From Phycisphaerales bacterium (GTDB lineage Bacteria; Planctomycetota; Phycisphaerae; Phycisphaerales; UBA1924): 64,000 nt of DNA. The position numbers and the translations under genes were made by a program. A model generated the notes under the pieces. That model was not told the origin of the DNA, did not search any database, and saw only the letters and a program-made list of their open reading frames with translations. This document shows, in pieces, positions 11,707 to 52,207 of this stretch. Positions within the stretch are counted from its first letter, which is position 1. Every line of letters begins with the position of its first letter. Location: positions 2,719,638 to 2,783,637 of the forward strand of contig JASGKR010000001.1 in the NCBI GenBank assembly GCA_047600535.1. Direction: 5' to 3'.

Positions 11707-12518
11707 ATGAACAAGCTGACCGCTGTCGCCGTTGTTGCTATCGCCGCGCTCGCGAGCGCCGCTTCTGCCAACATCGTTTATACCACAGGTAATTACGAGC
11801 AGAACTTCAACTCGCTTGCGCTCAGCGGCACCAACCAGTCGTGGACCAACGACAGCACGATCAGCGGCTGGTTCCTCTACCGCGCGCCGCGATCTCGCCT
11901 TTCGCAATTACCACGTACAACGCCGCGCCCGGCTCTAACACCACCGGCAGCTTCTATAGCTTCGGCGCGGCTTCCAGCAACGAACGTGCGTTCGGCGCCA
12001 TCGGCTCCGGCGGCACCTACTACGGCTCACAAGCCAATGGCGCAGTGTGCGGCTGGATCGCCGTCAGCCTCACCAACGGCACCGCCGACACACTCACCGA
12101 TGTGACGATCGGCTTCGACGGCGAGCAGTGGCGCGACGGCGGCTCGAGCGGCGTCACGCCCGCAGCGCAAACGATGGTTCTCGAGTACGGCTTCGGCGCA
12201 ACCTTCGGCGCGGTGACCGCCTGGACTGCGCCGGGCGGGGCGTTCAACTGGAGCTCGCCCGTCATCACCAACACGGGCGGCGGCGCGATGGTCGACGGCA
12301 ACGACGCGGGCCGCGTCGCCGGCCGCGGCGGCACGATCAGCAACCTGGCGTGGGAGCCGGGCCAGACGATGTGGGTCCGCTGGGTCGAAGTGAACGACGC
12401 GGGCAACGACCACGGACTGGCGATCGACAACTTCTCGTTCTCGGCCACGCCCACGCCGGGTGCGGCCGCCGTGCTCAGCTTCGGCATGCTCGCCGCGACG
12501 CGCCGCCGTCGCGCTTGA
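11707..12518 (+). CDS. secreted protein with PTPGA...RRRR (PEP-CTERM-like) C-terminal sorting signal. It is interrupted by a frameshift near 11885.
   Basis: The signal peptide is MNKLTAVAVVAIAALASAASA. The C-terminus is ATPTPGAAAVLSFGMLAATRRRRA. Two overlapping ORFs (11644-12105 and 11841-12518) join with a 1-nt shift at WFLYRA|AAISPF. Confidence 0.5.
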
Positions 12519-12795
12519 CCCTACCCCACCTACAACCATTGTGAAGACCAACCGATAACAGGGCCTGGGCGTACGCCCGGGCCTTTTTCTTTCCATCACC
12601 GGCTCTACGACGTGTAGCCATTAAACGTGGCCGCAACACACATTGCACGGCGCGACATACCCGCAGCTCCACAGTCGCCGCTCGAAACTCGACCTGCAAA
12701 CGTTCTTCATCGCCTCACGCGATTCGGTATGAACGTTGGCCGATCCAGCACTTTTCCCCTTGCATGTCGCGAGGACTGCGCAGTACCGTGCCTCC

Positions 12796-13647
12796 ATGAA
12801 CGAGATCGAACGCCGCACACTCATCGGGGCCGCCGGCATCGGCGCCATCGCCGCACTTTCCAAGGCAGGACCCATCAACCCGCCGGCCGGACCAGTCGGC
12901 TCGACCGGCCGCACGCTCGATGAGGTCTACAACCGCATCCCCGCCGTCGGCGCAGGGGATGGACGCGCGGCGATCGCCGGAAATACCAACTACGGTGTGG
13001 TGCTCAACGCACCAGGCTCTTATCTGCTCACCGGCGATGTCGTCGACCCTCTCGGCAACGGCATCGTCATCGGCGCCAGCGACATCACGCTGGACCTCAA
13101 CGGCTTCGCCGTCCGCAGCGGCAGCGGTAGCGCGTCCGGCATCGCCCTCTCCCCGGGCCTCAAGCGAGTGGTCGTCCGCAATGGGCGAGTCAACGGCTTC
13201 CAGAACGGCATCCTGATCAACGCCGCTTGCCAGAACGTCGTGCTCGAAGACCTGCTGGTCACCGCGGCCCGCGTCACTGGGATCTACCTCAACAGCGCCC
13301 TGGGCGTGCGGGTCCGCCGTTGCACGGTGCAGGACACCGGCGCCACCACCGTTGCGTCCGACTCGATCTCCGACATCACCGGCATCGTGCTCAACAGCGG
13401 TGCATCCACGGTTGAGGATTGCACCGTCAACCGTCTTTACTACTACGGAACGGGCTCGGCGACTCGCCGCGGCATCTGGGCGCCGGACAGCCCGGGGAAC
13501 GTGATCGCGCGCTGCACGATTGCGCACGACGGCGCGATCACCGCGACCGGCATCGCCATCGCCGGAACGAACGTCTATCGCGACAACACGGTCGTCCACT
13601 TCAGTACGCAGTATTCGGGCGGCTTCAACGGCGGCGGGAACACCTGA
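12796..13647 (+). CDS. Tat-signal right-handed beta-helix protein, paralog B
   Basis: The Tat-like motif is MNEIERRTLIGAAGIGAIAAL. The family module is GPINPPAGPVGSTGRTLDEVYNRIP...APGSYLLTGDV...ITLDLNGFAVRSGSG. The C-terminus is YRDNTVVHFSTQYSGGFNGGGNT. Confidence 0.65.
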   Translation: MNEIERRTLIGAAGIGAIAALSKAGPINPPAGPVGSTGRTLDEVYNRIPAVGAGDGRAAIAGNTNYGVVLNAPGSYLLTGDVVDPLGNGIVIGASDITLDLNGFAVRSGSGSASGIALSPGLKRVVVRNGRVNGFQNGILINAACQNVVLEDLLVTAARVTGIYLNSALGVRVRRCTVQDTGATTVASDSISDITGIVLNSGASTVEDCTVNRLYYYGTGSATRRGIWAPDSPGNVIARCTIAHDGAITATGIAIAGTNVYRDNTVVHFSTQYSGGFNGGGNT

Positions 13648-13743
13648 GACATCGCAGAGTTTGCCATCGGCCCCCTCCCGGCATGAACCACGATTCACCA
13701 CAGCGGCCGCTCCGCATACAACCGCGGTGGTCATCACACATTC

Positions 13744-14106
13744 ATGGCCCGCTCCCCCTCTCTACCCTCAGCCATGGCCGACGACCCGCGCCTGAAGATC
13801 CCCGATGAACTGACGCGCCCGGTAGACCGCTCGAAGTTCCCCAGTCTCGCTCCCAAGGGCGATGCTGCGGGAACCGGTAAGGACAAAAAGGGCCGCGGCG
13901 ACGGGACGATGGAGCAATTGGTCAGCATCGGCGTCGTGGGGAGCAACTTCGCCCTCGCAGTCGCGGCGACAGGATTGATCGGCTGGGGCGTTCAAGCCTG
14001 GGTGCTCCCCAAGCTGGCCCCCTGGCCGCTGGTTGTCGGGTTGCTGTTGGGGGTGGTCGTGGGCGCCCTCCGGTTCGTGCAGGACGCCCGGAAGCTCATG
14101 AAGTAG
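13744..14106 (+). CDS. small membrane protein, AtpZ/AtpI-family-like, upstream of the atp operon
   Basis: The 120-aa protein has two C-terminal hydrophobic helices (LVSIGVVGSNFALAVAATGLIGWG..., WPLVVGLLLGVVVGAL). It sits directly 5' of the atpI-like gene and atpB. Confidence 0.4.
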   Translation: MARSPSLPSAMADDPRLKIPDELTRPVDRSKFPSLAPKGDAAGTGKDKKGRGDGTMEQLVSIGVVGSNFALAVAATGLIGWGVQAWVLPKLAPWPLVVGLLLGVVVGALRFVQDARKLMK

Positions 14107-14218
14107 AGACTGAAGCGCCAGCGATCAGGCACCAGCCCAGCCCGTCCCTTGTGGTGGTAGCTGTCTGGCTCCTGATGCCTGCTCGTCCACTTTCCTCCAC
14201 CTTACACCTCACCTACAC

Positions 14219-14742
14219 TTGGCCCCCTTGACCCCGGCCACCGGTCCATCTTCGTCGCCGACACCCTCAGCCACCCCGGCTGTCGGCGTTTCGTCGCTGG
14301 CGTGGGTGATGACGGCGGCGGTAATCTGCGGCGGCGTGCTGGCTGCCGGCGTGCTGGCACAGGTCACGTGGGCGAAGGGCACCCCGGACATCGCCGGACC
14401 AGCCGTGCAGGCCATTCTGGCCGTGCTTGTCGCGATGGGTGTCGGCTACAGCCTGTTCGCTCTGACGGTCGGGCGCACGCCCGCCTCGGCGCCGATGGGC
14501 CTGCTCGCCGGGTCGACGGTGCGGATGCTCGTCGCCCTCTCGATCGCGCTGGTCATGTTCTTCATGGGCGGCTTTGACAAGCCGACCGGCACCGCCTTCT
14601 GGATCGTCTTCCTCTCCGCAGCGCTGGCGGCAATCGTCGCCGAGGCTTCGTGGGGCGTGAAGAACCTGCACCGCATCGCGTCTGCTTCTCAGATTCCCGC
14701 TCCTCAGGCTACTACGGGCGCCGCGCCCGCCGAGACCCACTG

Positions 14743-14743
<1 letters not shown>
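14219..14743 (+). CDS. atpI: ATP synthase protein I-like hydrophobic protein
   Basis: The protein is 174 aa and highly hydrophobic with about 4 TM segments. Its stop overlaps the atpB start (TGATG). Confidence 0.45.
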
Positions 14744-16045
<1,302 letters not shown>

Positions 16046-16054
16046 TCAACCAAC

Positions 16055-16082
16055 GTGCGCCGTCCCGAAAGGGACGGCACAC
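16055..16082 (+). promoter_or_regulatory. stable GNRA-capped hairpin between atpE and atpF (possible attenuator or processing site)
   Basis: The hairpin is gtgcgccgtccc-gaaa-gggacggcacac, a ~12-bp stem with one mismatch. No T-tract follows. Confidence 0.4.
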
Positions 16083-16126
16083 GCTTCCGTCCTGACCGAC
16101 TTTCCACTCCGCCGGAGTTTCAAGCC

Positions 16127-16750
16127 ATGATCAGCACCATCCTCAACACCGTCGTCGTCGCCGCCCTCAGCCAGCCGGGTCACGGCGAAGCCGCCACCGC
16201 CGCCAAGCAGGTTGGCGAGCATGCCGCCGGCGCGGGCGGACACATCGAGCCCGCGGGCGTCCTGCCGACGGTGACGCAGGGCATCGTCCCGGCGATCGTC
16301 TCGCTGGTGGTCTTCGCGGTGGTCTTCGCGGTCCTGGCCGTCAAGGTCTGGCCGACCATCAGCAAGGCTCTCGACGAGCGTGCCAACAAGATCAAGGGTG
16401 AGATCGAGGCCGCCGAAGCCGCCCGCATGACCGCCAAGGCCGCCTTGGAGGAGTACCAGGCCAACCTCGCCCAGGCCCGCACCGAGGCTCAGAAGATGAT
16501 CGCCGACGCCAAGGCACAGCAGCAGGTGCAGTTCGCCGAGATGAAGGCAAAGACCGACGCCGAGCTGACCGCGATGAAGGCCAAGGCGATCGGCGAGATC
16601 GACGCCGCCAAGAAGGCCGCCCTCGCCGAGGTCTACAACCAGACCGCGACGCTCGCGACCACCGTCGCCGGCAAGATTCTGCAGCGCGAGGTCAACAGCA
16701 GCGACCAGCAGCGGTTCGTCAGCGAGGCGCTGGCGGGCATGAAGAACTGA
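16127..16750 (+). CDS. atpF: F0F1 ATP synthase subunit b
   Basis: There is an N-terminal TM segment followed by a long charged, Ala-rich coiled coil (EIEAAEAARMTAKAALEEYQANLAQARTEAQK). The gene sits between atpE and atpH. Confidence 0.8.
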   Translation: MISTILNTVVVAALSQPGHGEAATAAKQVGEHAAGAGGHIEPAGVLPTVTQGIVPAIVSLVVFAVVFAVLAVKVWPTISKALDERANKIKGEIEAAEAARMTAKAALEEYQANLAQARTEAQKMIADAKAQQQVQFAEMKAKTDAELTAMKAKAIGEIDAAKKAALAEVYNQTATLATTVAGKILQREVNSSDQQRFVSEALAGMKN

Positions 16751-16879
16751 GCGGAAGAGTCCAAAGGGTCGAGGAATCAAGGCATCGAGAAGATGCCGTC
16801 TCCTTCGCCCTTCCTTCCCCACTCTTTTCTTCTTGACCCCGCGGTCCCTCGATTCCTCGATCCCTTCCCCGAGCTCACC

Positions 16880-17506
16880 ATGCCCCTCCTCGAATCACAG
16901 CCCGACGCCGTCGCCAACCTCTACGCCCAGTCGCTCTTTGACATCGTCGTCAAGGGCGGCGAGCCGGCCGTTCAGAGCACCCTCGACGAGCTCGAGGCGG
17001 TGATGGACGTCGCCCGCAGTGACAAGCAGTTCAACGAGTTCCTCGCCAGCCGCATCATCTCGCCCGACCAGCGCTCGCAGAGCCTGGACACGATGTTCAA
17101 GGGCAAGCTGAGCGAGCACACCGTGCGTTTCCTGCAGGTGCTCAACGGCAACAGCCGCATGCACGTGCTGCCGGCCGTCGTCGCTGCGTTCGACTCGATC
17201 ACCCACAAGAAGTTCGGCCGCATCGAAGTGGACGTCTACACCGCCACTCCGCTCAGCGACAGCGATAAGGCCGCCCTGGAATCGCAGCTGCAGGCCAAGC
17301 TCGGCCGCGCTCCGGTTATCCACGCCTACACCGACCCCTCGATGCTCGGCGGCATCCGCTTCCAGATCGGCGACAAGCTGATCGACGCCTCACTGGGTGC
17401 CCGCCTTGCCAAGATTCGCGAGCAGATCTCGACCAACGGCCTCCCCGGCGTTCGCGCCGCGGCCGACCGGATCTTCGCAGCGGACCCCAGCCGCAACGGG
17501 CACTAA
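16880..17506 (+). CDS. atpH: F0F1 ATP synthase subunit delta (OSCP)
   Basis: The ~208-aa protein carries the delta-subunit C-terminal motif PSMLGGIRFQIGDKLIDASL. Confidence 0.75.
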   Translation: MPLLESQPDAVANLYAQSLFDIVVKGGEPAVQSTLDELEAVMDVARSDKQFNEFLASRIISPDQRSQSLDTMFKGKLSEHTVRFLQVLNGNSRMHVLPAVVAAFDSITHKKFGRIEVDVYTATPLSDSDKAALESQLQAKLGRAPVIHAYTDPSMLGGIRFQIGDKLIDASLGARLAKIREQISTNGLPGVRAAADRIFAADPSRNGH

Positions 17507-17621: not shown

Positions 17622-20600
17622 ATGAATCGCTGCCACATCGTGCGGTCGTTGGCTATCGCTGCGCTCGTCGCCGCGGCCGGTACCGGTACCTCTCTTGGCC
17701 AGACGGCCCATTGGATCGCTCCGGGCACGACCGGCGTGTGGAACGACCCGCTGAATTGGTCCGGCGGCCTGGTGCCGGGGAACGGGAATCCGGGGGCCCC
17801 CACTGTCGCGGTGATCGATCGGGCGGCTGCCGCGCCGTACGAGTCGGTGCTGGACTTCTCCGCGTCGCTGGGATCCGTGCAGATCACCGGCCCATTCGCA
17901 ACGCTGCGACACACCGCAGGCACGCTCACAACGCCGTCGGTCGCGATCGACGGCGGGACCTACCAGCTCATCGGCGGAACGGTGTCGGGCGCGGTGATCT
18001 CGTCCACAAACGGCGGCCGAGTGATGATCGGCACCGACGTCGGCAGCTTCCCCGGCTCGACGTTCATCAACTCGACCGTGAACGCACCCGCGACGCTCGT
18101 GCACGGCGACCTTCAGTTGGACTTCTCCACGTCGTTCCTCGGCGGGCTGACGGTTCTGCACCGCGGGTTCCTGACGTACACCGGCGCGGGCGTGATCCGC
18201 GGCAACATGACGCTCGACCCCAACGCGGGCGACGAGGGGCTCATCAACGTCACCTCCGCGACCGGCGCGAGCCTCTCGATCAACTCCGGCGTCACGATCA
18301 ACGGCAACACGCGGTTCCTGACCGACGGATCGGTCACCAACAACGGCACGGTCGAGCTCCATGACGTGGGCATGGACAACTCGGCCCACTCGTTCAGCAG
18401 CCTGCGTTCCAACTTCGGCACGGTGACCAACAACGGCACTCTTCGTGCTGACGGCGCGTGGATCAGCGTCACGGGCACGTCGTTCGTGCTGCCGGCGAGT
18501 GGACATCTCATCGTCGAGAACAACGCACGCATGTCGATCGGCGCTGGAAACGGTCAGGGCGGCAGCGGCTACACCCTCGCAGGCCAGATCGACGTTACCG
18601 GCAACTCGAGCCTGTCGATCGGCGGCTTTGGCAACTCCGGTTTTATCAACAACGTCAACCTTTCCTCCGACAGCACGCTTTTCATCTCGGGCATCCTCAA
18701 CAACGCGGGCCGCACGATCAATTTCACCCCAGGGATGGGCCGGATCGACGGCACCGGCGGCGTGATCAACGGCGGCACGATCAATATCCAGCCCGGCGGC
18801 CAGGCCCCGCGCCACACGCTGCTCGATGGCGTCACGGTCAACGCCGCTGAACTCGTGCTCGACTCGTCGATGCAGCTGCAGGGGGCGTCGGTGATCAACG
18901 CCCCGCTCATTCGCGTCGGCACCGGCACGCCCGCGGGCGAAGAGGGGGGCCAGCTCTTCATCTTCCCAGGCACCAACTTCGCCCTTGACGGGCGCGATGC
19001 GATTCTCGATCACGGCGAACTAAGCGGCTCTGATGACTGGACGCTCCACATCGCCGCGGGCTCGCAGCTCATCGGGCGCAACGGCGTGATGCGTTCACTC
19101 CTGTCCAACGACGGACTCGTCCTTGACGACACCGGCACAGGCACCATGATCCTCGGCCTGCCCCAGGCCGCCGGCGACTCCTACAACCGCGGCACCATCC
19201 GCACCGCCGTGCCGGGCGCGAGCATCATCGCGTCCAATATCCGCAACCAGGCAACCGGCCTGGTCGAGGCTGGCCCTGGTTCGACCCTCTGGCTCACCGG
19301 CCGCTTCGTCAACAACGGAGTGATCCGCTCCGACGGCGGCACGCTCGTCCTTGACGCTCCGATGGCCCGCAGCGCACTCGGCCAACTCCAGCAGATCAAC
19401 GGCGGCGACTTTGTGATCGCCGACCGTCTCGAGCTCGAAGGCTCGACGCTGGCGTTCGACGGCTCGACCAACGTGTGGCGCCTCGCGGGCACGATGGCCA
19501 ACGGCACGATCGATCTTCCCGCCGGCGTTCCGATGATCGTGTCGGGCGTAGCTGGCGACGGCGGCGGCCTGGTCAACCTCTCCACCGGCCCTGCGTCGCT
19601 TCAAAGCGTCACCCTCCATGGTGATCTGGACGTCCGGGGAGGAGCTCTCAATCTGCAGAACTCAACCATTACCGGGCACATTCAGGCCGCGCTCGGCACG
19701 GCCTTGCGGGTCTACGGCAATACACCCGACGCCCAGGGCCGCACGCCAATCGATCTGCGCATCACCACCGCAAGCCAGCAGACCACCACATACCTCTTCC
19801 CCAGCGGCACCACCGACTCCACCGGCTCCGTCAACCTCGCACCGACCTTTTCGTTCAACGGCGCTGGCAGCTTCACGCTCCCCGGCAACGCAGCGCTCCC
19901 GTCCATCAACCGCGGCCAGATCACCGCCGACCTTGCCGGCCAGATCCTGTACCTTGGCACCGGCACGACTGCATCGTTCACCAACCTGGGCACGGCGACG
20001 GCCCGCAACGGCTCGCGGCTGACCATCGGACCCGTTCTGAACGGCGCCGGCGGCGTCATCGGCGTCGAGCCCGGCAGCGAAACGTGGCTGACCCTCAGCG
20101 GTCCGAACACCGGCACGCTCGCCGTCGACGGCGGGCACATGCGGCTGCTCGGCACGTTCGCCGCATCGTCGATCGGGACCGTGACGCGGAACGCCGCCGC
20201 GCCCGGCCGGTTCACCATCGGCGGCACCGTAAACAATAGCGGCAACTTCCGCACCTCCGACTACGGCGGTCCGGTCGAACTGACCGGCGGCACCATCAGC
20301 GGCGGCACGGTGACGGTGAGCCCCGGCTTCCCCCTCATCGTCGCGCCTCTGACCGGAACCGGGATCAACCAGTATGGCAACGGCATCATCAGCGGCGCAA
20401 CCGTCAACGGTGCTGTCACGCTCAACGGCATCCTCGACCTGACCAACGGCGCCTCGCTCTCAAGCCCTCAGCAAACCACCACCGCCGGCGGCGCCCTGCG
20501 GTACAGCGGCGGCACGATCAGCGGGCTGAACTACACCATCGAGCCGGTCGCCAACGTCACGCCGCAGACGCGCTCGGCCTTCTACGCCAACGGCAACACC

Positions 20601-21452
20601 ACGCTGGGCGCAACCTCGCTGATCTCTGGCGCAGGCGGGCGGCTCACCGGCGGCACGTTCACCGTGCAAGGCACGCTGCGTGCCGACCGCGCCGCTGCGC
20701 CAGGCCTCAGCAACGTGCTGCTTACGCAGTTCACACGGATCCAGAACAGCGGCACGTTCCAGGCGATCAACGGCGGCACGCTCCGCATCGATTACGTGCC
20801 GCAGAGCCCCGGCACCTACGTCCTGGGCAACCTTGTCAACGGCACGCTCACCGGCGGCACGTGGCAGGTCGGCGCAGACAGCACGCTGGACCTTGGCGGT
20901 CGCACCGTGACGACCAGCGCCGCCGGAACGACGATCGAGCTCTCCGGCCTCAACGCCTCGTTCTCCGCGATCAACACCCTTCAGAGCAACGCCGGCACGC
21001 TCAGCCTTCTCACCGGCGCGGCCCTCTCGCTCCCCGGAAACCTCGCCAATACCGGCACGCTCGTTCTCGACGAAGGCCGCCTCACCCTCGGCGGCGCGTT
21101 CAGCCTCGGCACTGGAACGCCGCGCGGCACGCTCTCGGCTCGCAACCTGTCGACCGACGAGACGGCGCCGCTGGCATCATCGACCGCCGCGCTCTCCGGC
21201 ACGCTCAACGCCACGATCGACCCGACGTGGCTCCCCACCATCGGCGGCCGATTCCTTGTGATCTCCGCTCCGTCAGGAATCACGGGCCAGTTCACCACCA
21301 TCAACGTCACCGGCCTGCCCGCGGGATGGAGCGTCACACCCGCGTACGGCGCGACGCAGATGGAACTGGTGGCTATCCCGACACCGGGAGCAACAGCCCT
21401 CGCCGCGGCAGCATTGCTGGGACTTCGCCGGCGCCGCCCCGCCCGCCACTGA
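17622..21452 (+). CDS. giant (1276 aa) secreted Gly/Thr-rich beta-strand-repeat surface protein with PTPGA...RRRR C-terminal sorting signal
   Basis: The signal peptide is MNRCHIVRSLAIAALVAAAGTGTSLGQ. The body is repetitive passenger-like sequence. The C-terminus is AIPTPGATALAAAALLGLRRRRPARH. Confidence 0.7.
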   Translation: MNRCHIVRSLAIAALVAAAGTGTSLGQTAHWIAPGTTGVWNDPLNWSGGLVPGNGNPGAPTVAVIDRAAAAPYESVLDFSASLGSVQITGPFATLRHTAGTLTTPSVAIDGGTYQLIGGTVSGAVISSTNGGRVMIGTDVGSFPGSTFINSTVNAPATLVHGDLQLDFSTSFLGGLTVLHRGFLTYTGAGVIRGNMTLDPNAGDEGLINVTSATGASLSINSGVTINGNTRFLTDGSVTNNGTVELHDVGMDNSAHSFSSLRSNFGTVTNNGTLRADGAWISVTGTSFVLPASGHLIVENNARMSIGAGNGQGGSGYTLAGQIDVTGNSSLSIGGFGNSGFINNVNLSSDSTLFISGILNNAGRTINFTPGMGRIDGTGGVINGGTINIQPGGQAPRHTLLDGVTVNAAELVLDSSMQLQGASVINAPLIRVGTGTPAGEEGGQLFIFPGTNFALDGRDAILDHGELSGSDDWTLHIAAGSQLIGRNGVMRSLLSNDGLVLDDTGTGTMILGLPQAAGDSYNRGTIRTAVPGASIIASNIRNQATGLVEAGPGSTLWLTGRFVNNGVIRSDGGTLVLDAPMARSALGQLQQINGGDFVIADRLELEGSTLAFDGSTNVWRLAGTMANGTIDLPAGVPMIVSGVAGDGGGLVNLSTGPASLQSVTLHGDLDVRGGALNLQNSTITGHIQAALGTALRVYGNTPDAQGRTPIDLRITTASQQTTTYLFPSGTTDSTGSVNLAPTFSFNGAGSFTLPGNAALPSINRGQITADLAGQILYLGTGTTASFTNLGTATARNGSRLTIGPVLNGAGGVIGVEPGSETWLTLSGPNTGTLAVDGGHMRLLGTFAASSIGTVTRNAAAPGRFTIGGTVNNSGNFRTSDYGGPVELTGGTISGGTVTVSPGFPLIVAPLTGTGINQYGNGIISGATVNGAVTLNGILDLTNGASLSSPQQTTTAGGALRYSGGTISGLNYTIEPVANVTPQTRSAFYANGNTTLGATSLISGAGGRLTGGTFTVQGTLRADRAAAPGLSNVLLTQFTRIQNSGTFQAINGGTLRIDYVPQSPGTYVLGNLVNGTLTGGTWQVGADSTLDLGGRTVTTSAAGTTIELSGLNASFSAINTLQSNAGTLSLLTGAALSLPGNLANTGTLVLDEGRLTLGGAFSLGTGTPRGTLSARNLSTDETAPLASSTAALSGTLNATIDPTWLPTIGGRFLVISAPSGITGQFTTINVTGLPAGWSVTPAYGATQMELVAIPTPGATALAAAALLGLRRRRPARH

Positions 21453-39656: not shown

Positions 39657-39695
39657 ACGACTGGCCTCAGGCCCAATGCGCAGTATCCTGTCGCC

Positions 39696-43160: not shown

Positions 43161-44849
43161 TTAGGCGCACCCGGGGACGACAAACCACTTGCGAAGGATG
43201 TTAAGAGGTCGCGTCAGCTTAGCGCTCGCCCGGAGGTGCATGCGTACCACCGTGCCATGTGGCACGATTCCCAGTTCGCTCGGGACGCCATGCTTTGGAA
43301 GCAGTTTAATCAAGTAGCGCCCATGAACTGATCGCAGGGATAATTGACGAGCATCTTCCTCTTGGGCTGAAGAAGTGATAATCTCGACATTGTCCGCGAT
43401 CATGAAAGCTGACAACAGGCCAATACCAAAACGACTAATTGGGTGGAATCCCGGGTACGTTTCTTTGAATTTTCGATCTTGGTACTTTGAGGACCCCACT
43501 TTTAGTAGGTGTTCCTGTATCACCTGCTGGGTCATTCCAGTCCCGTCGTCGCGGACCTCGATAACATTGGAGTCGCTATCCCAGACAACCTGAACCTTTC
43601 CTGAACTAACTTGCTTCCCGTCCACGGCGTCAATATGGCGCTGCAGGCGGACGGCGTCTATAGCATTTTGTGTAATTTCACGAAGTACGACATCGGTGTC
43701 GTTGTACAGCGTGTGGCCGATCAGCAAGTCTAGTATCTTCGTTTGATCAATTGAGAACGCAAACGATTCTTTGATGAACCCGTCTGTCTCGATGTTTGTA
43801 TCGTCGATTTGCCGCCACGGAAACTCGAATCGGCTTCCATGCCGCTTTTGGGAATCCGCGGCCCACGCGGCTGACTGCTTTAACTGGTTTTCCGCGTACT
43901 TCAAATAAGATGTTAGCCCGAAAAAGCCGTTGGGATTGCTGAAGTAAGCGAACACCTCGATTGTGTCTCGCGGCAGGCTGTCATCAATTGCCCCTTCGGA
44001 ATTTTTAGCGAACTTGGTTCTCACCCGTTTAACCGCGTGCTGCTTCGCCCATTCTTCCTGACTAATTGGGTCAGTTGGTGCAATGACTCTGAAAAGAATA
44101 CTGGGCGTTCTATCTTGCGTAATATGGAGGAGATCGGCAGATCGGAGCAGAATCGCAGCGTACTGGACATTTGCCGTTGCGGTATCGCTGTTGCCGTATG
44201 GCTGCGATACCTTGTACTTCGTGACATTATCCAAGTCGTTTAAATGGTGGCTCTCGCACACAAGCGCGAGGTCCTTGCGAAACTGCGGATCTAACGAGCT
44301 AAGTAATTTGTCAACTTCTGAGATTGCGGCATGCGAAACCCCCAAATGTTCGGCAGGCCTTCCAAGAATCCAGTTTTTTACACGCACGGCATGATTCTGA
44401 CGCACGAACTCTTGGTATAGATACCTTTCAAGTTCCTCGGGTGGAAGCTTTGATACCCGTGATTTATAATCAATCCCATCCTGGTCGGCAAAGAGCACTT
44501 TGTCCTTAAAAGCGGGAAACAGCGATTCTCCTCTGCGCTGGTATTCTGCTTTGGTTACCAGCATGCCAAGATCGTGGAAGTACACGGCTAGCGTGATCAT
44601 GAGCCAATCCGTGGGGCTCATGAGTTTTACGGTTGAGCTGGGAACAAGTTGCTCTACGAGTTGCAGCATTGCGTCCACATGCGAGACGTCATGCTTTGTG
44701 TATTCGTCAAATATACCATCGCGACCGATAAGTCCTGTGAGCTGTTCGATTACTCGCTTAATGTGGAGGAGTTTTAGGCCGCTGAACGAGGAGAGCTCTT
44801 CGGCCGGAACCGCCCAAAGCTCGACGTTAGTGGATAGCTGCTGGACCAA
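43161..44849 (-). CDS. HD-domain plus GHKL (HATPase_c) ATPase fusion protein
   Basis: The N-terminus has H..HD motifs (KHDVSHVDAML ... AVYFHDLGM). The C-terminus has a Bergerat fold: N-box REITQNAIDA, G1 IEVRDDGTGMT and G2 SRFGIGLLSAFMIAD. GC is lower than the flanks. Confidence 0.6.
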   Translation of the reverse strand: MVQQLSTNVELWAVPAEELSSFSGLKLLHIKRVIEQLTGLIGRDGIFDEYTKHDVSHVDAMLQLVEQLVPSSTVKLMSPTDWLMITLAVYFHDLGMLVTKAEYQRRGESLFPAFKDKVLFADQDGIDYKSRVSKLPPEELERYLYQEFVRQNHAVRVKNWILGRPAEHLGVSHAAISEVDKLLSSLDPQFRKDLALVCESHHLNDLDNVTKYKVSQPYGNSDTATANVQYAAILLRSADLLHITQDRTPSILFRVIAPTDPISQEEWAKQHAVKRVRTKFAKNSEGAIDDSLPRDTIEVFAYFSNPNGFFGLTSYLKYAENQLKQSAAWAADSQKRHGSRFEFPWRQIDDTNIETDGFIKESFAFSIDQTKILDLLIGHTLYNDTDVVLREITQNAIDAVRLQRHIDAVDGKQVSSGKVQVVWDSDSNVIEVRDDGTGMTQQVIQEHLLKVGSSKYQDRKFKETYPGFHPISRFGIGLLSAFMIADNVEIITSSAQEEDARQLSLRSVHGRYLIKLLPKHGVPSELGIVPHGTVVRMHLRASAKLTRPLNILRKWFVVPGCA

Positions 44850-45018
44850 GGTAAGCTCCTAGCGGCAGTTTACTTATTTGCCGCACACCTTTTAGGACGA
44901 TTTGTTCCGGCAAGCCGGCGGGGGAAGCACCGCCCAACCCTTTCCACTCCCCGTGCCGCCGCGCCGGCCGCTCTGGGACGGTCGGTGCTGCCTTCATGCT
45001 CGCGATTTAGACTATCCA

Positions 45019-45693: not shown

Positions 45694-45768
45694 CAAGGCG
45701 CAGCGCAGCCTCAGTAGCGCGTCTGGTTCGGGACCAGAAGGTCGGAGGTTCAAATCCTCCCACCCTGG
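45694..45768 (+). pseudogene. degenerate tRNA-Pro(CGG)-like element
   Basis: The anticodon arm is tctgg-TTCGGGA-ccaga and the T arm is ggagg-TTCAAAT-cctcc. A D arm gcgc/gcgc is present but the D loop lacks GG and U8 is absent. The acceptor stems pair at only 5 of 7 positions. Confidence 0.3.
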
Positions 45769-45838
45769 CTGCAGCGCAACCACACAGCGCGTTTGACTGG
45801 GGATCAAAAGGTCGTGGGTTCAAATCCCGCCACCACGA
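45765..45838 (+). pseudogene. degenerate tRNA-Pro(GGG)-like element, tandem to the previous one
   Basis: The anticodon arm is tttga-CTGGGGA-tcaaa. The variable loop is aggtc. The T arm is gtggg-TTCAAAT-cccgc. The acceptor pairs at 4 of 7 positions. The architecture is the same as the neighbouring element. Confidence 0.3.
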
Positions 45839-46980: not shown

Positions 46981-49107
46981 TCACGGACAACCGAAGTAGT
47001 ACAAGTCGAAGAAGAGGATCTCGTCGTTAGTGCTGACGATGCCGTCAGGCCCAGGCGTTGCACCAGGCCCAGCGATGTCCGCCCGGGCGTCGCCCGTCAG
47101 CAGGTACCCCATGAAGACGGCCATGTCGTTGTTATCCACAACACAGTCGTGCCCGGGCACGCCGCCCTGCACGCCGACATCGATCGGACAGAACGGCGCC
47201 GTGGTCAACCCCAGGCTCGCCAGCGTGAAGGTGATCTTCTTGCGGATCAGCGGCTCGCCTGTGTCGAGGTAGGACCCTTCCATCACTGTGGTTTCCGGAC
47301 GGACCCGTGCCACGGCGGTGTAGATGGTAATCGGCGTCGTTGACGTAATGCCCGGCACCAGTTTGGCAAACTCGCCGCCATCGAACCTGAAGGTCATGTC
47401 GGTCGTGGCGGGACTTGTGGCCACCGAAGTGCTGACGCTGGTCGTCGGCGCCGCTGCAGCCCTCATCCAGAGCCGCTGGCCGTTGACCACCATGAGGGCT
47501 GACCCTTTCACTGTGGACGGGGCGGGTACGGTCGCGGTAGGCGAAACGCCGATGCGCAACCGCAGACTCAGGTCTGTAAACACTCCACTGCACGTCGTCC
47601 CTGCGAGCACCGTCTGGCTGTCAAACACCATGCTGGAATCCACTCGATCGGTAAAGGTGTTGTCGTACTCCTCTGGGTAGAAGAGCTTCCAGTTACCAAA
47701 AGACGTGTCGCCGGTTCCTCCGGCCACAAAGCACTTGAGCATCACCAGCCCGCAGAAGAACTGCCGGACCTTGCCCACCGGATTACCCGAAGGACAGATG
47801 TCATAGTTCGTGTAGTCTGTGAGCGAGCAGAGCGTACGTTGCTCTGATGCCCACACATGCGGAGTATCGGATGGCGATAGTGAGACTGGCCCGTCAGTAG
47901 AAAAGTCGCTTGCGGACCTGGTCGTGCCGATCCACGTCATCCCAAACGACGGGTCAAAGTACGCGGGGCGGGCCGGTATCCCAGCCAACGTGTCAGCCGG
48001 AAGGTTGATACCCGCAATCGTGTGGTTCAGGAATGTCGTGTACTGCGCCGGCTGAGCCGTGGAGTAGGTTCCGGCCGGTGGATTTGCGGCGAGCGTCGCG
48101 TTCCACTCCCACGTATTCCCCTCGCGCCCGTCAAACATCTGCAGGTAATTCATCGCCCCGCTGGAGTCGCGGATCTGGCTGTTGATGAGCAGGTTGTCAC
48201 CCCACCCCGGTTCGATGTAGAACGTCGTCCCGTCGCCCACCCCAGCCAAGCGAACCAGGCTCAGCCACCCGCGCGCCGATTGAGCGCAAACGGTGCGACG
48301 CGCCGTCGTGCTGAGCACTGTGCTGTCGCTGCCGTTCCCGATCAACAGCCGCTGCGCGATCTGCACCGGAGTTGCGTTGCCTCCTGGGCCGTATATCCAT
48401 GCGGGTCGGCCCGGCGATGGCGTAGCGACGTACTCCGTAGACATCGCACGCATGCCGGCCATCACGGCCGCTCCAACTTCCTCCGGCTTGCTGGCGCCCT
48501 TAATCCAATCCGCCAGCCTCAACAGCATGGTGCGGTTGGGCAAAGCCGCCGAGTTGAGAGTGAAAGCCGGGCTGTCGTGGCCCGATGCCGCCGGGGCCCT
48601 GTACGTCAGAGCCACTTCGTTGATCGTGACAGTGTTTGTCATCACCGCGCCTGTGCTGTCCACCACGGAGAGCTCGAGTTTGTACAGCCCGCACTTGGTG
48701 GGTAGCGACGTAATCGGAAAGATCATGCCGGCGCTCGCCGATGCGTCAGGCGGGGTGGTCACCTGCAACGCGGCATCGGTCCACGTGTGCCGAAGCTTGT
48801 AAGGCCCAGTCCCTCCGATGCCGGGAACATTGAGCTCCAACTTCAACCCGGGCACGCCTTCTACCGCCATGGCTGTGTGCAAGTCATCCCACACGATGTA
48901 CTGCAGCGGTGTGCCGCCGTTGCGGTCGTAGACGTACACCGGGTTGGTCGCGGGCGTCGGCCATGCACCGCGATCACTCAGATAAATCGGATTTGTCTCC
49001 GTCGCCTTAATCCAGTCGATGTTCGCCTGCGCCAACGCGCGGCCGGAACAGGCGAGCAAGCCGCACACAGCGGCGGCTAAAACAGTCGAACGGGTGGCGG
49101 TGCGCAT
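46981..49107 (-). CDS. large secreted protein (708 aa) with duplicated C-terminal DNNDMAVF / STNDEILFFDLYYFGC dockerin-like module
   Basis: The signal peptide is MRTATRSTVLAAAVCGLLACSGRALA. The C-terminus is GVQGGVPGHDCVVDNNDMAVFMGYLLTGDARADIAGPGATPGPDGIVSTNDEILFFDLYYFGCP. Confidence 0.65.
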   Translation of the reverse strand: MRTATRSTVLAAAVCGLLACSGRALAQANIDWIKATETNPIYLSDRGAWPTPATNPVYVYDRNGGTPLQYIVWDDLHTAMAVEGVPGLKLELNVPGIGGTGPYKLRHTWTDAALQVTTPPDASASAGMIFPITSLPTKCGLYKLELSVVDSTGAVMTNTVTINEVALTYRAPAASGHDSPAFTLNSAALPNRTMLLRLADWIKGASKPEEVGAAVMAGMRAMSTEYVATPSPGRPAWIYGPGGNATPVQIAQRLLIGNGSDSTVLSTTARRTVCAQSARGWLSLVRLAGVGDGTTFYIEPGWGDNLLINSQIRDSSGAMNYLQMFDGREGNTWEWNATLAANPPAGTYSTAQPAQYTTFLNHTIAGINLPADTLAGIPARPAYFDPSFGMTWIGTTRSASDFSTDGPVSLSPSDTPHVWASEQRTLCSLTDYTNYDICPSGNPVGKVRQFFCGLVMLKCFVAGGTGDTSFGNWKLFYPEEYDNTFTDRVDSSMVFDSQTVLAGTTCSGVFTDLSLRLRIGVSPTATVPAPSTVKGSALMVVNGQRLWMRAAAAPTTSVSTSVATSPATTDMTFRFDGGEFAKLVPGITSTTPITIYTAVARVRPETTVMEGSYLDTGEPLIRKKITFTLASLGLTTAPFCPIDVGVQGGVPGHDCVVDNNDMAVFMGYLLTGDARADIAGPGATPGPDGIVSTNDEILFFDLYYFGCP

Positions 49108-49344
49108 GTCGGCTCCTTGGTGACAAAGCGGCGGCGAGAAGATGCCGCCGGAGCCTACCGAGACGCCAATGCGATCACAACATCAAGCACAAGCGATGCG
49201 CCAAACTTGATGCAAGTACCGCGCAGCTTTTACAGGTTCTGCAACCGACTACATATCGCGAGACGCTCGAGAGTGCGGCGTGGATTGGTGTCGTCGATCA
49301 TCCGCGCCTGCCCGCTCTTTTCGTTTGAGCTCTCGCCGGCGGCC

Positions 49345-49827: not shown

Positions 49828-49959
49828 CGTTGCACTCCAGTGATCGCCTTTGGCGGCTCATCGTTGGCGCGAAATGAACAGAGCGTGAGTTGTGAGTGGC
49901 GAGTCGAATGCTCGCCGCTCGTCGTACGGCATACGCATCCCACCTCGTCCACCGACTGC

Positions 49960-51249
49960 TCATTTCACCCGGATCGCGCGACGAGCGAGCACTTTTCCGC
50001 CCGTACCGCTTACGTACCGCACCTCCGCCTCACCGACCTCGGCCGGGCACTTGACGTTCAGCGGCGAACCCGCGGTCGTGTTGGTGTACGCACCGTACTT
50101 CGCATCGGGCGTTCCCTTGGGCACGATGGTGATGTAGTCGCCCGCGTTGCTCGGACCCGTCCACTCGATCGAGACCGGCTTGCCCGCTTCGCTCTCATCC
50201 GGCGCGCTGAGCGTCACCGTCGCGGCGACGATCGTGATCGCCGTGCGAGCCAGCACGCGCCGGCCCTGTCCCGTTACGTAGCGCACCTCCGCTTTGCCCG
50301 CATCGATCGGCGCGGTGAGCTGTGTGGGAGAACCCTTCGACACGTCGACGTAGCTGGCGTACTGCGCATCGGGCGCATCGGCCGGCACAACCGTGATGTA
50401 GTCGCCCGCGTTGTTCGGGCCCGTCCAGGAGACCTCGAAGCGTGAACCCGCCACCGCGCGTTCCGGCGCATTCACCTTCACAGCCGCGGCCACCACCTTG
50501 ATTGCCGCGCGCGCGAGCACAGTGCGGACACCCCCCGCTCCAGGCCCCGCAGCAACATACCGCAGTTCCGCATCACCCTCCTGTGTCGGCGCGGTGAGCG
50601 TGAGCTCCGCGCCCTTGGCGGTCTGCTCATAGCTGCCGTACTGCTCATCGCCCGCGCCCTTGGCGACGATCGTCACATAGTCGCCCGCGTTGTTGGGACC
50701 CGTCCACCGCACCTTCAGCGGTGATCCGATCACGACCTCCGCCGGCCCGGCGACTGTCGCCGACACCGGCTGCACCGCGATCCGCGCACGCCCCAACACC
50801 GTGCGCGAAGGACCGGTCACATAACGAAGCTCATACGCGCCCGGCTCCATCGGCGCGGTGAGCCGCAACGACGGCCCCTCCGACGTCTGCCGGTATGACT
50901 TCGACTCGCTGGCCGCAGCGTCTGCACGCACGATGGTCACAAAGTCACCCGCGTTGTCTGGACCAGTCCAGGCAACTGCGAACTCGGCACCCGCGGACAC
51001 AGCCTCCGGCGCCGTCAACGTCGCGGCCGTCAACCGCTCAGCGACTGGAGCCGCACCGGACGCCGGCGCCGATGACGCCGCATTTGAAGCAGGCGGCGCG
51101 GGTAGCTTCGCGTTGCTCTTCGTCAGCCCCACGCTTCCATTCTGCGGCTTGCATCCCTTCAGCAAGAGAAGGAGCACAACGACGATCACCACGAGCATCG
51201 AGAGGACGATCGCGACAGTCTTACGGCGGCGGTTCGTAGAGTCGGGCAT
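49960..51249 (-). CDS. membrane-anchored protein with four tandem ~95-aa repeats
   Basis: The N-terminal TM segment is VAIVLSMLVVIVVVLLLLL. Four repeats have the pattern WTGPNNAGDY(I/V)TIV...Y..T..G.....AP...G.AE(L/V)RYV....VLAR..I.V. Confidence 0.6.
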   Translation of the reverse strand: MPDSTNRRRKTVAIVLSMLVVIVVVLLLLLKGCKPQNGSVGLTKSNAKLPAPPASNAASSAPASGAAPVAERLTAATLTAPEAVSAGAEFAVAWTGPDNAGDFVTIVRADAAASESKSYRQTSEGPSLRLTAPMEPGAYELRYVTGPSRTVLGRARIAVQPVSATVAGPAEVVIGSPLKVRWTGPNNAGDYVTIVAKGAGDEQYGSYEQTAKGAELTLTAPTQEGDAELRYVAAGPGAGGVRTVLARAAIKVVAAAVKVNAPERAVAGSRFEVSWTGPNNAGDYITVVPADAPDAQYASYVDVSKGSPTQLTAPIDAGKAEVRYVTGQGRRVLARTAITIVAATVTLSAPDESEAGKPVSIEWTGPSNAGDYITIVPKGTPDAKYGAYTNTTAGSPLNVKCPAEVGEAEVRYVSGTGGKVLARRAIRVK

Positions 51250-51547
51250 CGAGCGGAGTCTATGAATGGCGGTGAAGTGGCGGGTCGCAAGTCGCTCGTC
51301 GCGAGGCACGCGAGCTGCACGCTTTTCGATCTTGGTACTCGGCACTCGAGGCTCTGCTGAATTTGGCCACGTGGCCATTTGACTACTTGAGCTTGGGTAA
51401 TCTGGCGACTACCCGCCATCCCGGCATTTTTCCCCCCTTGCATCTCCTCCCCTCGCAAGGTACTCTCAGATCACGCCGCGGCGCGGGGTGCAATCCGCCC
51501 GTGCGGCACAACTACATACCTCCATACCGGAGGAGAGAGAGAAGAGC

Positions 51548-52207
51548 ATGCGCTACACGCTGTCTGCGTTGTCCATCGCCGCCATCACCGCCGCGGCATC
51601 CGCTCAAACCTGGAACTTCGACGCCCCGGTCTTCACCTTCGGTGAGTCGACCCCGCTGCTCGACCGCGCGGCCAACATTCCCGGCTCCACGCCCGGCATG
51701 ACCGCATCGTTCGACTCCCTGTTCGGCGCTCTGGCGATCAGCGACTCCGCCGATTTCCAACCCAACAGCCTGATGCAGGGCCAGTATCTCTTCGCACCCG
51801 GCGACGGCGTCAACGGCCCGCTGGCGCTCCTGACCATCACGTTCAGCCAGCCGGTGACCTCGGCGAGCTTCGACTTCGCCGTCAACGGCTTCGAGCCGGG
51901 CTGGAACCTCATCCTCTTCGCCGATCCCGATTTCGGCGCCGTTGATGAGGTCCCCGTGTATTCGCTCTACGCGGCCGGCGAGGTCGACACGACCGGCTTC
52001 GGCGCGTGGGGCGGCCACGTTGACTTCACCAGCGCCACGCCTTTCACCACGATCGTCATGACCGCGATCTTCGGTGACCCCACCGTCGGCACGCCCCCTC
52101 AGGCCACGCAGTTCGCGATCGACAACCTCACCGTTACCCCGACGCCCGGTGCCGCCGCGGCGTTCGGCCTCGCCGGCGCGGCTTCGCTGCGTCGCCGTCG
52201 TCGCTGA
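51548..52207 (+). CDS. secreted protein with PTPGA...RRRR C-terminal sorting signal
   Basis: The signal peptide is MRYTLSALSIAAITAAASA. The C-terminus is TVTPTPGAAAAFGLAGAASLRRRRR. The body resembles the 11707-12518 protein. Confidence 0.65.
   Translation: MRYTLSALSIAAITAAASAQTWNFDAPVFTFGESTPLLDRAANIPGSTPGMTASFDSLFGALAISDSADFQPNSLMQGQYLFAPGDGVNGPLALLTITFSQPVTSASFDFAVNGFEPGWNLILFADPDFGAVDEVPVYSLYAAGEVDTTGFGAWGGHVDFTSATPFTTIVMTAIFGDPTVGTPPQATQFAIDNLTVTPTPGAAAAFGLAGAASLRRRRR

What the first reader, a model, noticed from the sequence alone, without database searches (positions are those of the whole stretch)
11707..52207. PTPGA...RRRR C-terminal motif in three secreted proteins: a PEP-CTERM-like sorting signal variant
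Proteins 11707-12518, 17622-21452 and 51548-52207 all end in (T/I)PTPGA(A/T)A-[hydrophobic ~12]-RRRR(R/P)A. This has the architecture of exosortase (PEP-CTERM) substrates but with PTP replacing PEP. No exosortase/archaeosortase gene lies in the window.
Basis: partly seen in the sequence, partly recalled or inferred. Interest (0 to 1): 0.55.

Follow-up and report, generated by a model that had tools for sequence, protein, structure and literature searches.

The report
Phycisphaerae P(T/A)PG variant of PEP-CTERM
Three secreted proteins in this Phycisphaerales genome end in a short tail that is a lineage-specific version of the known PEP-CTERM surface-sorting tag, with the usual glutamate lost and a glycine fixed; it is a real and tidy variant of a known system, not a new kind of system.

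Summary
Three + strand genes end in (T/I)PTPG, 12-13 hydrophobic residues, RRRR and a stop. No other ORF in the window does. The first gene carries a 1-nt frameshift, so 11707-12518 is not one ORF.

The window comes from a Phycisphaerales MAG (locus tags QM783_).

The reading as a PEP-CTERM variant is supported by homology. In the large family of protein 1, the 42 closest homologues carry P(T/A)PG, exactly 14 residues, then RRRR(A) and the end. The 69 more distant ones carry canonical VPEP at the same position. Weak homologues of protein 2 also end in VPEP.

Across 72 unique tails on about 41 unrelated cargo families, P, P and G are invariant and Glu never occurs.

In named genomes the variant appears only in Phycisphaerae.

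No locus mixes the two tail types: 16 multi-tail loci are all P(T/A)PG and 12 are all PEP.

The generic NCBIfam PEP-CTERM model reaches about its cut-off for 33 of 52 isolated variant tails. No dedicated model exists.

I found no exosortase in the window or in about 0.5 Mb of related DNA. The rest of the genome could not be searched, so the cognate enzyme is inferred, not shown.

Verdict: a new variant of a known kind, of moderate interest.

The parts
11707..11889 (+). Protein 1, N-terminal part: predicted signal peptide MNKLTAVAVVAIAALASAASA (11707-11769) and the start of the beta-sandwich domain, in the frame of 11707.
   Evidence: Residues 1-61 of the intact homologue P0005 align to this frame. 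The signal peptide is judged by inspection.
11889..11898 (+). Site of a 1-nt frameshift inside protein 1, within a gcgcgccgcg run. It is probably an assembly indel.
   Evidence: P0005 residues 1-61 align in one frame and residues 65-268 in the other. A second such frameshift lies in gene 33093-34502.
11841..12518 (+). Protein 1, C-terminal part as annotated (QM783_13170, 225 aa). It is a CBM-like beta-sandwich cargo domain ending in the sorting tail.
   Evidence: P0004 is 99% identical. The AlphaFold model of homologue P0005 has pLDDT 86.9, an all-beta fold and a C-terminal helix. Fold matches to CBM22, CBM4 and MAM are weak.
12450..12515 (+). Tail 1: PTPG-AAAVLSFGMLAAT-RRRRA. The stop codon is at 12516-12518.
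17622..21452 (+). Protein 2: 1276 aa, N-terminal signal peptide, Gly/Thr/Asn-rich repetitive body, no Pfam hit.
   Evidence: Weak homologues P0124-P0127 end in VPEP tails and P0128 ends in VPSPG.
21378..21449 (+). Tail 2: PTPG-ATALAAAALLGL-RRRRPARH. The stop codon is at 21450-21452.
51548..52207 (+). Protein 3 (QM783_13350, 219 aa): signal peptide MRYTLSALSIAAITAAASAQ and a small domain with a QFAIDNL motif before the tail.
   Evidence: P0001 is 100% identical. The C-terminus aligns to the end of NF038120 PEP_CTERM_QFxxD, E = 1.7e-4 and below the cut-off.
52139..52204 (+). Tail 3: PTPG-AAAAFGLAGAASL-RRRRR. The stop codon is at 52205-52207.
   Evidence: As an isolated tail it scores 16.3 bits on TIGR02595, whose cut-off is 16.

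Best explanation
The three tails are C-terminal protein-sorting domains of the PEP-CTERM type, in a derived form that characterises a lineage of Phycisphaerae. The consensus is [VIT]-P-[TA]-P-G-[AST]-x-A-[LV]-L-G-x-[GA]-G-L-x-x-x-R-R-R-R-(A)-end.

Proposed mechanism. Each protein is exported by Sec through its N-terminal signal peptide. The short hydrophobic helix and the cytoplasmic Arg cluster hold the C-terminus in the inner membrane, with the P(T/A)PG motif at the periplasmic face. A membrane-embedded exosortase-family cysteine transpeptidase then recognises the motif. It removes the helix and Arg tail and passes the mature protein on towards the cell surface or extracellular matrix.

The strict genome-level choice of one motif or the other implies that the sorting enzyme of this lineage changed specificity. 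It no longer needs Glu and now requires Gly after the second Pro.

Shown here: the tails exist; they sit at the PEP position in orthologues; they occur on many unrelated signal-peptide proteins; they are lineage-restricted; and they never mix with PEP tails.

Inferred from what is known of PEP-CTERM/exosortase systems: cleavage, the identity of the enzyme and the final destination.
For: 1. Positional homology. Among the 120 best homologues of protein 1, 42 have P[TA]PG and 69 have PEP, directly after the same conserved strand. Only PEP members carry the precomputed Pfam PF07589 hit. NCBI names both a PEP member (Gemmatales) and a PTPG member (P0019, Phycisphaerales) 'PEP-CTERM sorting domain-containing protein'.

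2. A second family. Weak homologues of protein 2 end in VPEP, and one ends in VPSPG.

3. Profile evidence. hhalign of tails from unrelated cargo gives 96.6% probability, E = 5.7e-10. TIGR02595 matches 33 of 52 isolated variant tails at E <= 0.015, against 45 of 61 canonical tails.

4. Typical sorting-signal behaviour. There are 72 unique tails on about 41 cargo clusters, and 62 of 73 proteins have a signal-peptide-like N-terminus. Tandem arrays reach 6-8 genes. The source genome holds at least 4 copies.

5. Taxonomy. In species-representative genomes the variant occurs in 6 Phycisphaerales/Phycisphaeraceae MAGs and 1 'Planctomycetota' MAG. PEP occurs in Pirellulales, Gemmatales, Verrucomicrobiota, Burkholderiales and others, and in one Phycisphaerales MAG, L013. 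The PEP tails of L013 (PEPASLALLGLGGLAVLRRRRR) otherwise look like the variant.

6. Exclusivity. There are 42 loci with variant tails and 30 with PEP tails, and none has both. Of 28 loci with two or more tails, 16 are all-variant and 12 are all-PEP.

7. Tight constraint. P, P and G are present in 72 of 72 tails. Spacing to the Arg run is 14 in 62 of 72. The protein ends 0-1 residue after the Arg run in 66 of 72.
Against: No exosortase or archaeosortase gene was found in the window or in about 0.5 Mb of DNA around variant-tail genes (plus the Pfam columns). This is weak negative evidence, because exosortase genes are usually single-copy and unlinked to their substrates.

The defining, nearly invariant Glu of PEP-CTERM is absent from every variant tail.

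As full-length proteins, the three window proteins do not reach the TIGR02595 or PF07589 thresholds, and NCBI annotates them as hypothetical.

Isolated tails score about as well on MYXO-CTERM models as on PEP-CTERM. HMM evidence alone therefore cannot assign the enzyme class.

Cleavage has not been shown for any of these proteins.
Confidence: 0.75

Rival explanations
1. The signal is a sorting signal, but it is processed by a membrane enzyme outside the exosortase family. Candidates are a CPBP/Rce1-type 'myxosortase'-like protease, a rhombosortase or an undescribed enzyme. In this view that enzyme replaced the exosortase in this Phycisphaerae lineage, which would explain the loss of Glu.
For: MYXO-CTERM models (TIGR03901, TIGR03382) hit 51 of 52 and 44 of 52 isolated tails at E <= 0.015, as often as the PEP-CTERM models do. 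Glu is lost completely and Gly is fixed. No exosortase was seen in about 0.5 Mb of surveyed DNA.
Against: MYXO-CTERM and its relatives require an invariant Cys in the signature motif (Haft 2023, bioRxiv 10.1101/2023.06.07.544157), and none of the tails has one. Canonical PEP tails also cross-hit the MYXO-CTERM models, 39 of 61, so those hits reflect the Gly/Ala-rich helix and the RRRR run. Orthologues carry PEP at the same position. No recurrent protease-like membrane protein was found next to the tail genes; the only recurrent polytopic neighbour is a SpoIIE/PP2C phosphatase.
Confidence: 0.12
2. The tail is only a permanent C-terminal membrane anchor. The helix and positive-inside Arg cluster tether periplasmic proteins to the inner membrane, and no processing occurs.
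For: The helix and Arg cluster alone would suffice for anchoring. No processing enzyme has been identified here.
Against: A plain anchor would not keep P-x-P-G invariant in 72 of 72 tails on about 41 unrelated cargoes. It would not fix the spacing at 14 residues or end the protein right after RRRR. A hydrophobic stretch of 13-14 residues is short for a stable transmembrane helix. The orthologous PEP-CTERM tails belong to a system for which exosortase-dependent sorting is the accepted model (Haft 2006, PMC1569441).
Confidence: 0.08
3. It is a chance or compositional artefact of a GC-rich genome, where Ala/Gly/Arg-rich reading frames are common.
For: GC-rich DNA does produce many off-frame P-A-P-G ... 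RRRR matches. In the metagenome scan 86 of 128 pattern matches were such noise.
Against: The three window tails lie in the coding frame, which has high GC3. They are strictly C-terminal and hydrophobic, and they are conserved in homologues from many samples. In fetched DNA 24 of 24 pattern matches were genuine tails.
Confidence: 0.01

Closest known systems
PEP-CTERM sorting domain with exosortase (TIGR02595 / PF07589; Haft et al. 2006, PMC1569441)
   Same: It sits at the extreme C-terminus and has the same three parts: a Pro-x-Pro motif abutting a hydrophobic stretch of about 14 residues, then an Arg cluster. It occurs many times per genome on unrelated signal-peptide proteins. Orthologous proteins carry PEP at exactly this position. 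The generic HMM reaches roughly its cut-off on about 63% of isolated tails.
   Different: The 'nearly invariant' Glu is replaced by Ala or Thr in every tail, with Ser once. The residue after the second Pro is an invariant Gly, where PEP tails have S, G, A or T. Spacing to the Arg run is fixed at 14, against mostly 17 in the canonical tails sampled. The protein ends 0-1 residue after RRRR. The variant is restricted to a Phycisphaerae lineage and never mixes with PEP tails. The cognate exosortase has not been identified.
Named PEP-CTERM variants that have dedicated exosortases, for example VPLPA-CTERM/XrtD, VPDSG-CTERM/XrtC, PEPxxWA-CTERM, PTPA-CTERM and IPTL-CTERM (NCBIfam)
   Same: The concept is the same: a lineage-specific change of the signature motif within the same three-part design. 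One example surfaced here, a Rhizobacter orthologue with a VPLPP tail and XrtD 7 kb away.
   Different: None of these models matches the P(T/A)PG tails at a useful level. PTPA-CTERM, IPTL-CTERM and VPLPA-CTERM are absent from the list of hits, and VPDSG and VPxxxP hit 1 of 52. No dedicated enzyme is known for this variant.
MYXO-CTERM with myxosortase (TIGR03901 / TIGR03382)
   Same: It shares the Gly/Ala-rich short helix followed by RRRR at the C-terminus. The HMMs give borderline scores of 15-21 bits.
   Different: There is no invariant Cys in the motif, the organisms are not Myxococcota, and canonical PEP tails cross-hit the same models.
PGF-CTERM with archaeosortase A
   Same: The motif is Pro-Gly-hydrophobic and directly abuts the helix. 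The enzyme belongs to the same superfamily as exosortase. PssA and PssD are linked to anchoring in archaea, and psd-pssA lie next to one P(T/A)PG gene in three lineages here.
   Different: That system is archaeal and no PGF-CTERM HMM hit was obtained. The psd-pssA adjacency looks like inherited synteny in one subclade.

Membership tests
PEP-CTERM sorting domain (TIGR02595 / PF07589) | Located at the extreme C-terminus of the protein | tested here: met
   All three window tails end 0-4 residues after the Arg run. Of 72 unique variant tails, 66 end within 1 residue.
PEP-CTERM sorting domain (TIGR02595 / PF07589) | Three-part design: signature motif abutting a hydrophobic stretch of about 14 residues, then a basic cluster | tested here: met
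   The tail is PxPG, then 12-13 hydrophobic residues, then RRRR. The model of homologue P0005 predicts a C-terminal helix at residues 252-267.
PEP-CTERM sorting domain (TIGR02595 / PF07589) | Nearly invariant Pro-Glu-Pro tripeptide (Haft 2006) | tested here: not met
   None of 72 variant tails has Glu. The position holds Ala in 43, Thr in 28 and Ser in 1.
PEP-CTERM sorting domain (TIGR02595 / PF07589) | Score at or above the curated HMM cut-off | tested here: inconclusive
   TIGR02595 gives 16.3 bits for isolated tail 3 (cut-off 16). Tails 1 and 2 are not listed, and there is no hit on any full-length window protein. At E <= 0.015, 33 of 52 isolated variant tails hit, against 45 of 61 canonical tails. 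PF07589 hits none of the three window proteins, and none of the 42 variant homologues has a precomputed PF07589 hit.
PEP-CTERM sorting domain (TIGR02595 / PF07589) | Several copies per genome on unrelated proteins that have N-terminal signal peptides | tested here: met
   The QM783 genome holds at least 4 copies. Single 20-kb loci hold 6-8. There are about 41 cargo clusters, and 62 of 73 proteins have a signal-peptide-like N-terminus.
PEP-CTERM sorting domain (TIGR02595 / PF07589) | Homologous proteins carry the canonical domain at the same position | tested here: met
   Protein 1 family. Protein 2 homologues.
PEP-CTERM sorting domain (TIGR02595 / PF07589) | Co-occurrence with an exosortase (EpsH/Xrt) gene in the same genome | not testable with these tools
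   The MAG is not in the contig look-up. There is no exosortase in the window or in about 0.5 Mb of variant-tail loci.
MYXO-CTERM (TIGR03901 / TIGR03382), substrates of myxosortase | Invariant Cys in the signature motif, and a Myxococcota host | tested here: not met
   No Cys occurs in the motif region of any window tail, and the organism is a Phycisphaerales. HMM scores are borderline at 15-21 bits, and canonical PEP tails score similarly.
LPXTG / sortase | An LPXTG-type motif separated from the helix by a spacer | tested here: not met
   The motif is PxPG and abuts the helix. TIGR01167 hits 4 of 52 tails, weakly.
Other named CTERM variants: PTPA-CTERM NF033465, PGAP-CTERM NF050189, IPTL-CTERM TIGR04174, VPLPA-CTERM TIGR03370, GlyGly-CTERM | A match to the dedicated HMM | tested here: not met
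   PTPA-CTERM, IPTL-CTERM and VPLPA-CTERM hit none of 52 tails. PGAP-CTERM hits 2 of 52 at E about 0.004. A GlyGly-type model (MprA tail) hits 1 of 52.

The most novel reading that the evidence does not exclude
The P(T/A)PG lineage of Phycisphaerae has a re-specified, or even replaced, sorting enzyme that no longer uses the Glu of PEP. As with archaeosortase A, it may transfer its substrates onto a phosphatidylethanolamine-type lipid. A hint is that a psd-pssA pair sits directly upstream of the protein-1 orthologue in three lineages whose outer flanks differ. If true, this would give a clean natural experiment on exosortase substrate recognition and on the still unknown acceptor of exosortase substrates.
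Probability: 0.12. Interest if true: 0.7.

Novelty: new variant of a known kind. Interest (0 to 1): 0.42.

Why it matters
PEP-CTERM/exosortase is the most widespread C-terminal sorting system of Gram-negative environmental bacteria. Its cleavage site, its acceptor and the role of the conserved Glu remain poorly defined.

This lineage replaces Glu in every substrate, fixes a Gly and fixes the helix length. A sister lineage keeps PEP on orthologous proteins. Together they form a natural specificity switch. Comparing the exosortases of the two groups should point to the residues that read the motif.

There is also a practical gain. Current models leave most of these proteins annotated as 'hypothetical'. 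A dedicated P(T/A)PG-CTERM model would label a large share of the predicted surface proteome of many Phycisphaerae MAGs, including tandem arrays of 6-8 genes.

Tried and rejected
1. The source MAG could not be looked up in the contig index. Proteins P0001 and P0003 are not on record, so the genome could not be walked.

2. Exosortase searches found none near variant tails. I ran phmmer with the Rhizobacter XrtD from L018. I also built an HMM from 7 exosortases, three of them planctomycetal (Isosphaera, Aquisphaera, SH-PL62, taken from plasmid records). Both were run against all ORFs of the window and of every fetched locus. The Pfam columns of 9 contig look-ups showed none either.

3. Polytopic neighbours tested as candidate sorting enzymes turned out to be psd-pssA, a YihY/BrkB protein, a SpoIIE/PP2C phosphatase, a GT39-like protein and transporters.

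4. A sigma-54 promoter upstream of the tail genes, as in proteobacterial PEP-CTERM genes, was not supported. The window gave 63 matches against 71 expected by chance, and none is well placed.

5. The held literature has no description of this variant or of exosortases in Phycisphaerae.

6. The family of protein 3 is too small to be informative, with 3 members.

7. Protein 2 has only weak homologues.

8. The fold search on the cargo gave only weak CBM/MAM-like jelly-roll matches.

9. I considered and rejected MYXO-CTERM (no Cys), LPXTG/sortase, PTPA-CTERM, PGAP-CTERM and IPTL-CTERM (no HMM match) and a compositional artefact.

Full report
**Observation**

ORF listing and a six-frame regex scan show three + strand ORFs whose last 22-27 residues have the same layout. 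It is (T/I)-P-T-P-G, then 12-13 Ala/Gly/Leu-rich residues, then RRRR, then 0-4 residues and a stop. The ORFs end at 12518, 21452 and 52207. No other ORF in the window has a hydrophobic tail of this kind.

All three proteins start with signal-peptide-like N-termini (by inspection).

The first 'protein' is not one ORF. The stretch 11707-12518 is 812 nt, and the N-terminal 61 codons lie in a different frame from the annotated 225-aa ORF (11841-12518). Alignment to the intact 268-aa homologue P0005 puts a 1-nt frameshift at nt 11889-11898. A second frameshift of the same kind sits inside gene 33093-34502. Both are most simply explained as indel errors of a single-contig MAG.

**Source**

Proteins 1 and 3 are identical to NCBI entries QM783_13170 and QM783_13350 of a 'MAG: Phycisphaerales bacterium' with a contig of 4,383,188 bp. 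A paralogue of protein 3 elsewhere in that genome (QM783_05580) ends IPTPGAAAAIGVAGAASLRRPSRRR. The genome therefore has at least four such tails.

**What the tail is**

The decisive evidence comes from homologues.

- Protein 1 belongs to a large family, with 676 hits. The domain ends in the strand GNDHGLAIDNFSFSA.
- Among the best 120 homologues, the 42 closest have [TVI]-P-[TA]-P-G, always with exactly 14 residues between the second Pro and RRRR, and the protein ends at RRRR or RRRRA.
- Another 69 have canonical (V/I/T)PEP[SGAT], with spacing of 13-22.
- Only PEP members carry the precomputed Pfam PF07589 hit. NCBI already calls one PTPG member (P0019) a 'PEP-CTERM sorting domain-containing protein'.
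- Protein 2 has only weak homologues, but four of five end in VPEP tails and the fifth ends in VPSPG.
- The C-terminus of protein 3, including its QFAIDNL motif, aligns to the very end of the NF038120 'PEP_CTERM_QFxxD' model, below the cut-off.

The tail therefore occupies the PEP-CTERM position in at least two independent protein families.

**Generality**

I scanned species-representative genomes with the protein-1 family.

- P[TA]PG tails appeared in six Phycisphaerales/Phycisphaeraceae MAGs and one 'Planctomycetota' MAG.
- PEP tails appeared in Pirellulales, Gemmatales, Verrucomicrobiota, Burkholderiales, Chromatiales and others.
- One Phycisphaerales MAG (L013) has PEP tails such as PEPASLALLGLGGLAVLRRRRR. 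Apart from the motif, these look like the variant.
- The same cargo domain is fused to other C-terminal regions in Bacteroidota and Cyanobacteria.

A DNA pattern for P-[TA]-P-G-[AST]-x-A-N10-RRRR recovered 42 further genuine tails in metagenome contigs, among 128 matches. The rest were off-frame GC-rich noise.

Pooling all sources gives 72 unique variant tails on about 41 unrelated cargo clusters, and 62 of 73 proteins have signal-peptide-like N-termini. Tandem arrays reach 6-8 tail-bearing genes (L005, L026, L141, L221).

Position statistics are as follows.

| Feature | Count (of 72 unless stated) |
|---|---|
| First Pro | 72 |
| Residue between the two Pro | Ala 43, Thr 28, Ser 1; Glu 0 |
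| Second Pro | 72 |
| Gly after the second Pro | 72 |
| Spacing of 14 to the Arg run | 62 |
| Protein ends 0-1 residue after the Arg run | 66 |

**Exclusivity**

There are 42 loci with variant tails and 30 with PEP tails, and none has both. Among the 28 loci with at least two tails, 16 are purely P[TA]PG and 12 purely PEP. This all-or-none pattern is what a single sorting enzyme per genome would produce if its specificity had shifted.

**Comparison with known models**

- On isolated 30-residue tails, TIGR02595 (PEP_CTERM) matches 33 of 52 variant tails at E <= 0.015, which is roughly its 16-bit cut-off. It matches 45 of 61 canonical tails.
- Several PEP-CTERM protein-family models also match through their tail ends.
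- MYXO-CTERM models match as often. They match canonical PEP tails too, and the invariant Cys that defines MYXO-CTERM is absent here.
- PTPA-CTERM, IPTL-CTERM, VPLPA-CTERM, PGAP-CTERM and GlyGly-type models do not match usefully.
- Profile-profile comparison of tails from unrelated cargo gives 96.6% probability, E = 5.7e-10. With the shared cargo strand included it gives 98.6%.
- As full-length proteins, the three window proteins reach no curated threshold. This explains their 'hypothetical protein' annotation.

**The enzyme**

No exosortase lies in the window. A phmmer search with an XrtD found in a Rhizobacter locus gave no significant hit. Neither did an HMM built from seven exosortases, three of them planctomycetal. 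The best window hit had E = 2.4.

None was found either in about 0.5 Mb of DNA around variant-tail genes (and the Pfam columns of the contig look-ups). No recurrent protease-like membrane neighbour turned up.

Exosortases are normally single-copy and unlinked to their substrates, so this absence says little. The rest of the QM783 genome could not be reached: the MAG is absent from the contig look-up, and the collection scans are capped. Whether a cognate exosortase exists is therefore the main open point.

**Mechanism (inferred)**

1. Sec exports the protein.
2. The short helix and the Arg cluster retain the C-terminus in the inner membrane.
3. An exosortase-family transpeptidase recognises P(T/A)PG at the periplasmic face.
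4. The tail is removed and the protein is handed on to the surface or matrix.

The cargo of protein 1 is a confidently modelled beta-sandwich (pLDDT 86.9). It has weak CBM/MAM-like matches, which fits a surface binding role.

**Verdict**

The motif is broader than stated, being P-[TA]-P-G. It is a lineage-wide, tightly constrained derivative of PEP-CTERM in Phycisphaerae. It is not covered by a dedicated model in NCBIfam release 20, and it is not described in the literature I could search.

It is a new variant of a known kind. It is useful for annotation and as a natural specificity switch, but it is not a new type of system.

Noticed in passing
window 33093-34502 (-), around 33,200: There is a second 1-nt frameshift. 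The GC-type dockerin domain of this gene breaks off after its first half and continues in another frame (...GQLDNNDFIAFITGFFDGCGEN*). Together with the frameshift in protein 1, this suggests indel errors in the assembly rather than true pseudogenes.
   Followed up: partly
window 58039-59010 (+), 46981-49182 (-), 33093-34502 (-): Three secreted proteins end in a GC-type dockerin domain (NCBIfam NF041540, 30-54 bits). The same window therefore holds two different C-terminal anchoring or sorting devices.
   Followed up: partly
L003 7851-9672, L010 4178-5812, L214 8077-9707 (upstream of the protein-1 orthologue): Phosphatidylserine decarboxylase and CDP-diacylglycerol-serine O-phosphatidyltransferase genes lie directly upstream of the P(T/A)PG orthologue in three lineages whose outer flanks differ. 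They are absent next to PEP-type orthologues and absent in the window. This recalls the PssA/PssD link to archaeosortase lipid anchoring, but it may be inherited synteny of one subclade.
   Followed up: partly
window 9796-11091 (-), 12733-13647 (+), 34507-40748 (+): A family of right-handed beta-helix paralogues shares a twin-arginine-like N-terminus (DLDRRFLLGGLAGAAG...GPLNPPAGAVASTGKTL). They flank protein 1 here, and similar genes flank its orthologues in L216 and L009.
   Followed up: no
window 45694-45830 (+): tRNA-Pro(cgg) is followed 4 nt later by a partial tRNA-like sequence (Rfam tRNA model positions 9-63, 37.9 bits). An HNH-like gene and a 3-kb stretch without a convincing ORF (41754-44896) lie upstream. 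This may be a remnant of an integration site.
   Followed up: no
window 13687-17506 (+): The ATP synthase genes for the membrane part and delta subunit (atpZ/I-like, a, c, b, delta) are followed by protein 2 and pgk, not by the alpha, gamma, beta and epsilon genes. The atp operon therefore appears split.
   Followed up: no
L005 4893-10780, L026 5066-10768, L141 365-5500, L221 3699-12766: Tandem arrays of 6-8 small secreted proteins each end in a P(T/A)PG tail. In L005 four of the tails are identical (PAPGALALLGMGGLVAARRRRA), and for three of them the first residues translated past the stop codon are identical too. This suggests recent duplication or gene conversion of the tail module. A sigma-54-type activator gene lies just upstream of the L005 array.
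   Followed up: partly
L018 13321-14985 (-): The Rhizobacter orthologue of protein 1 carries a VPLPP (VPLPA-CTERM-type) tail, and a VPLPA-specific exosortase XrtD (561 bits) lies about 7 kb away. This is a worked example of the same cargo family following the local exosortase type.
   Followed up: yes
window 17622-21452 (+): The intact 1276-aa ORF of protein 2 has no identical or close entry in the 5.8-billion-protein collection, although proteins 1 and 3 from the same MAG do. It may have been left uncalled or marked as a pseudogene in the deposited annotation.
   Followed up: no
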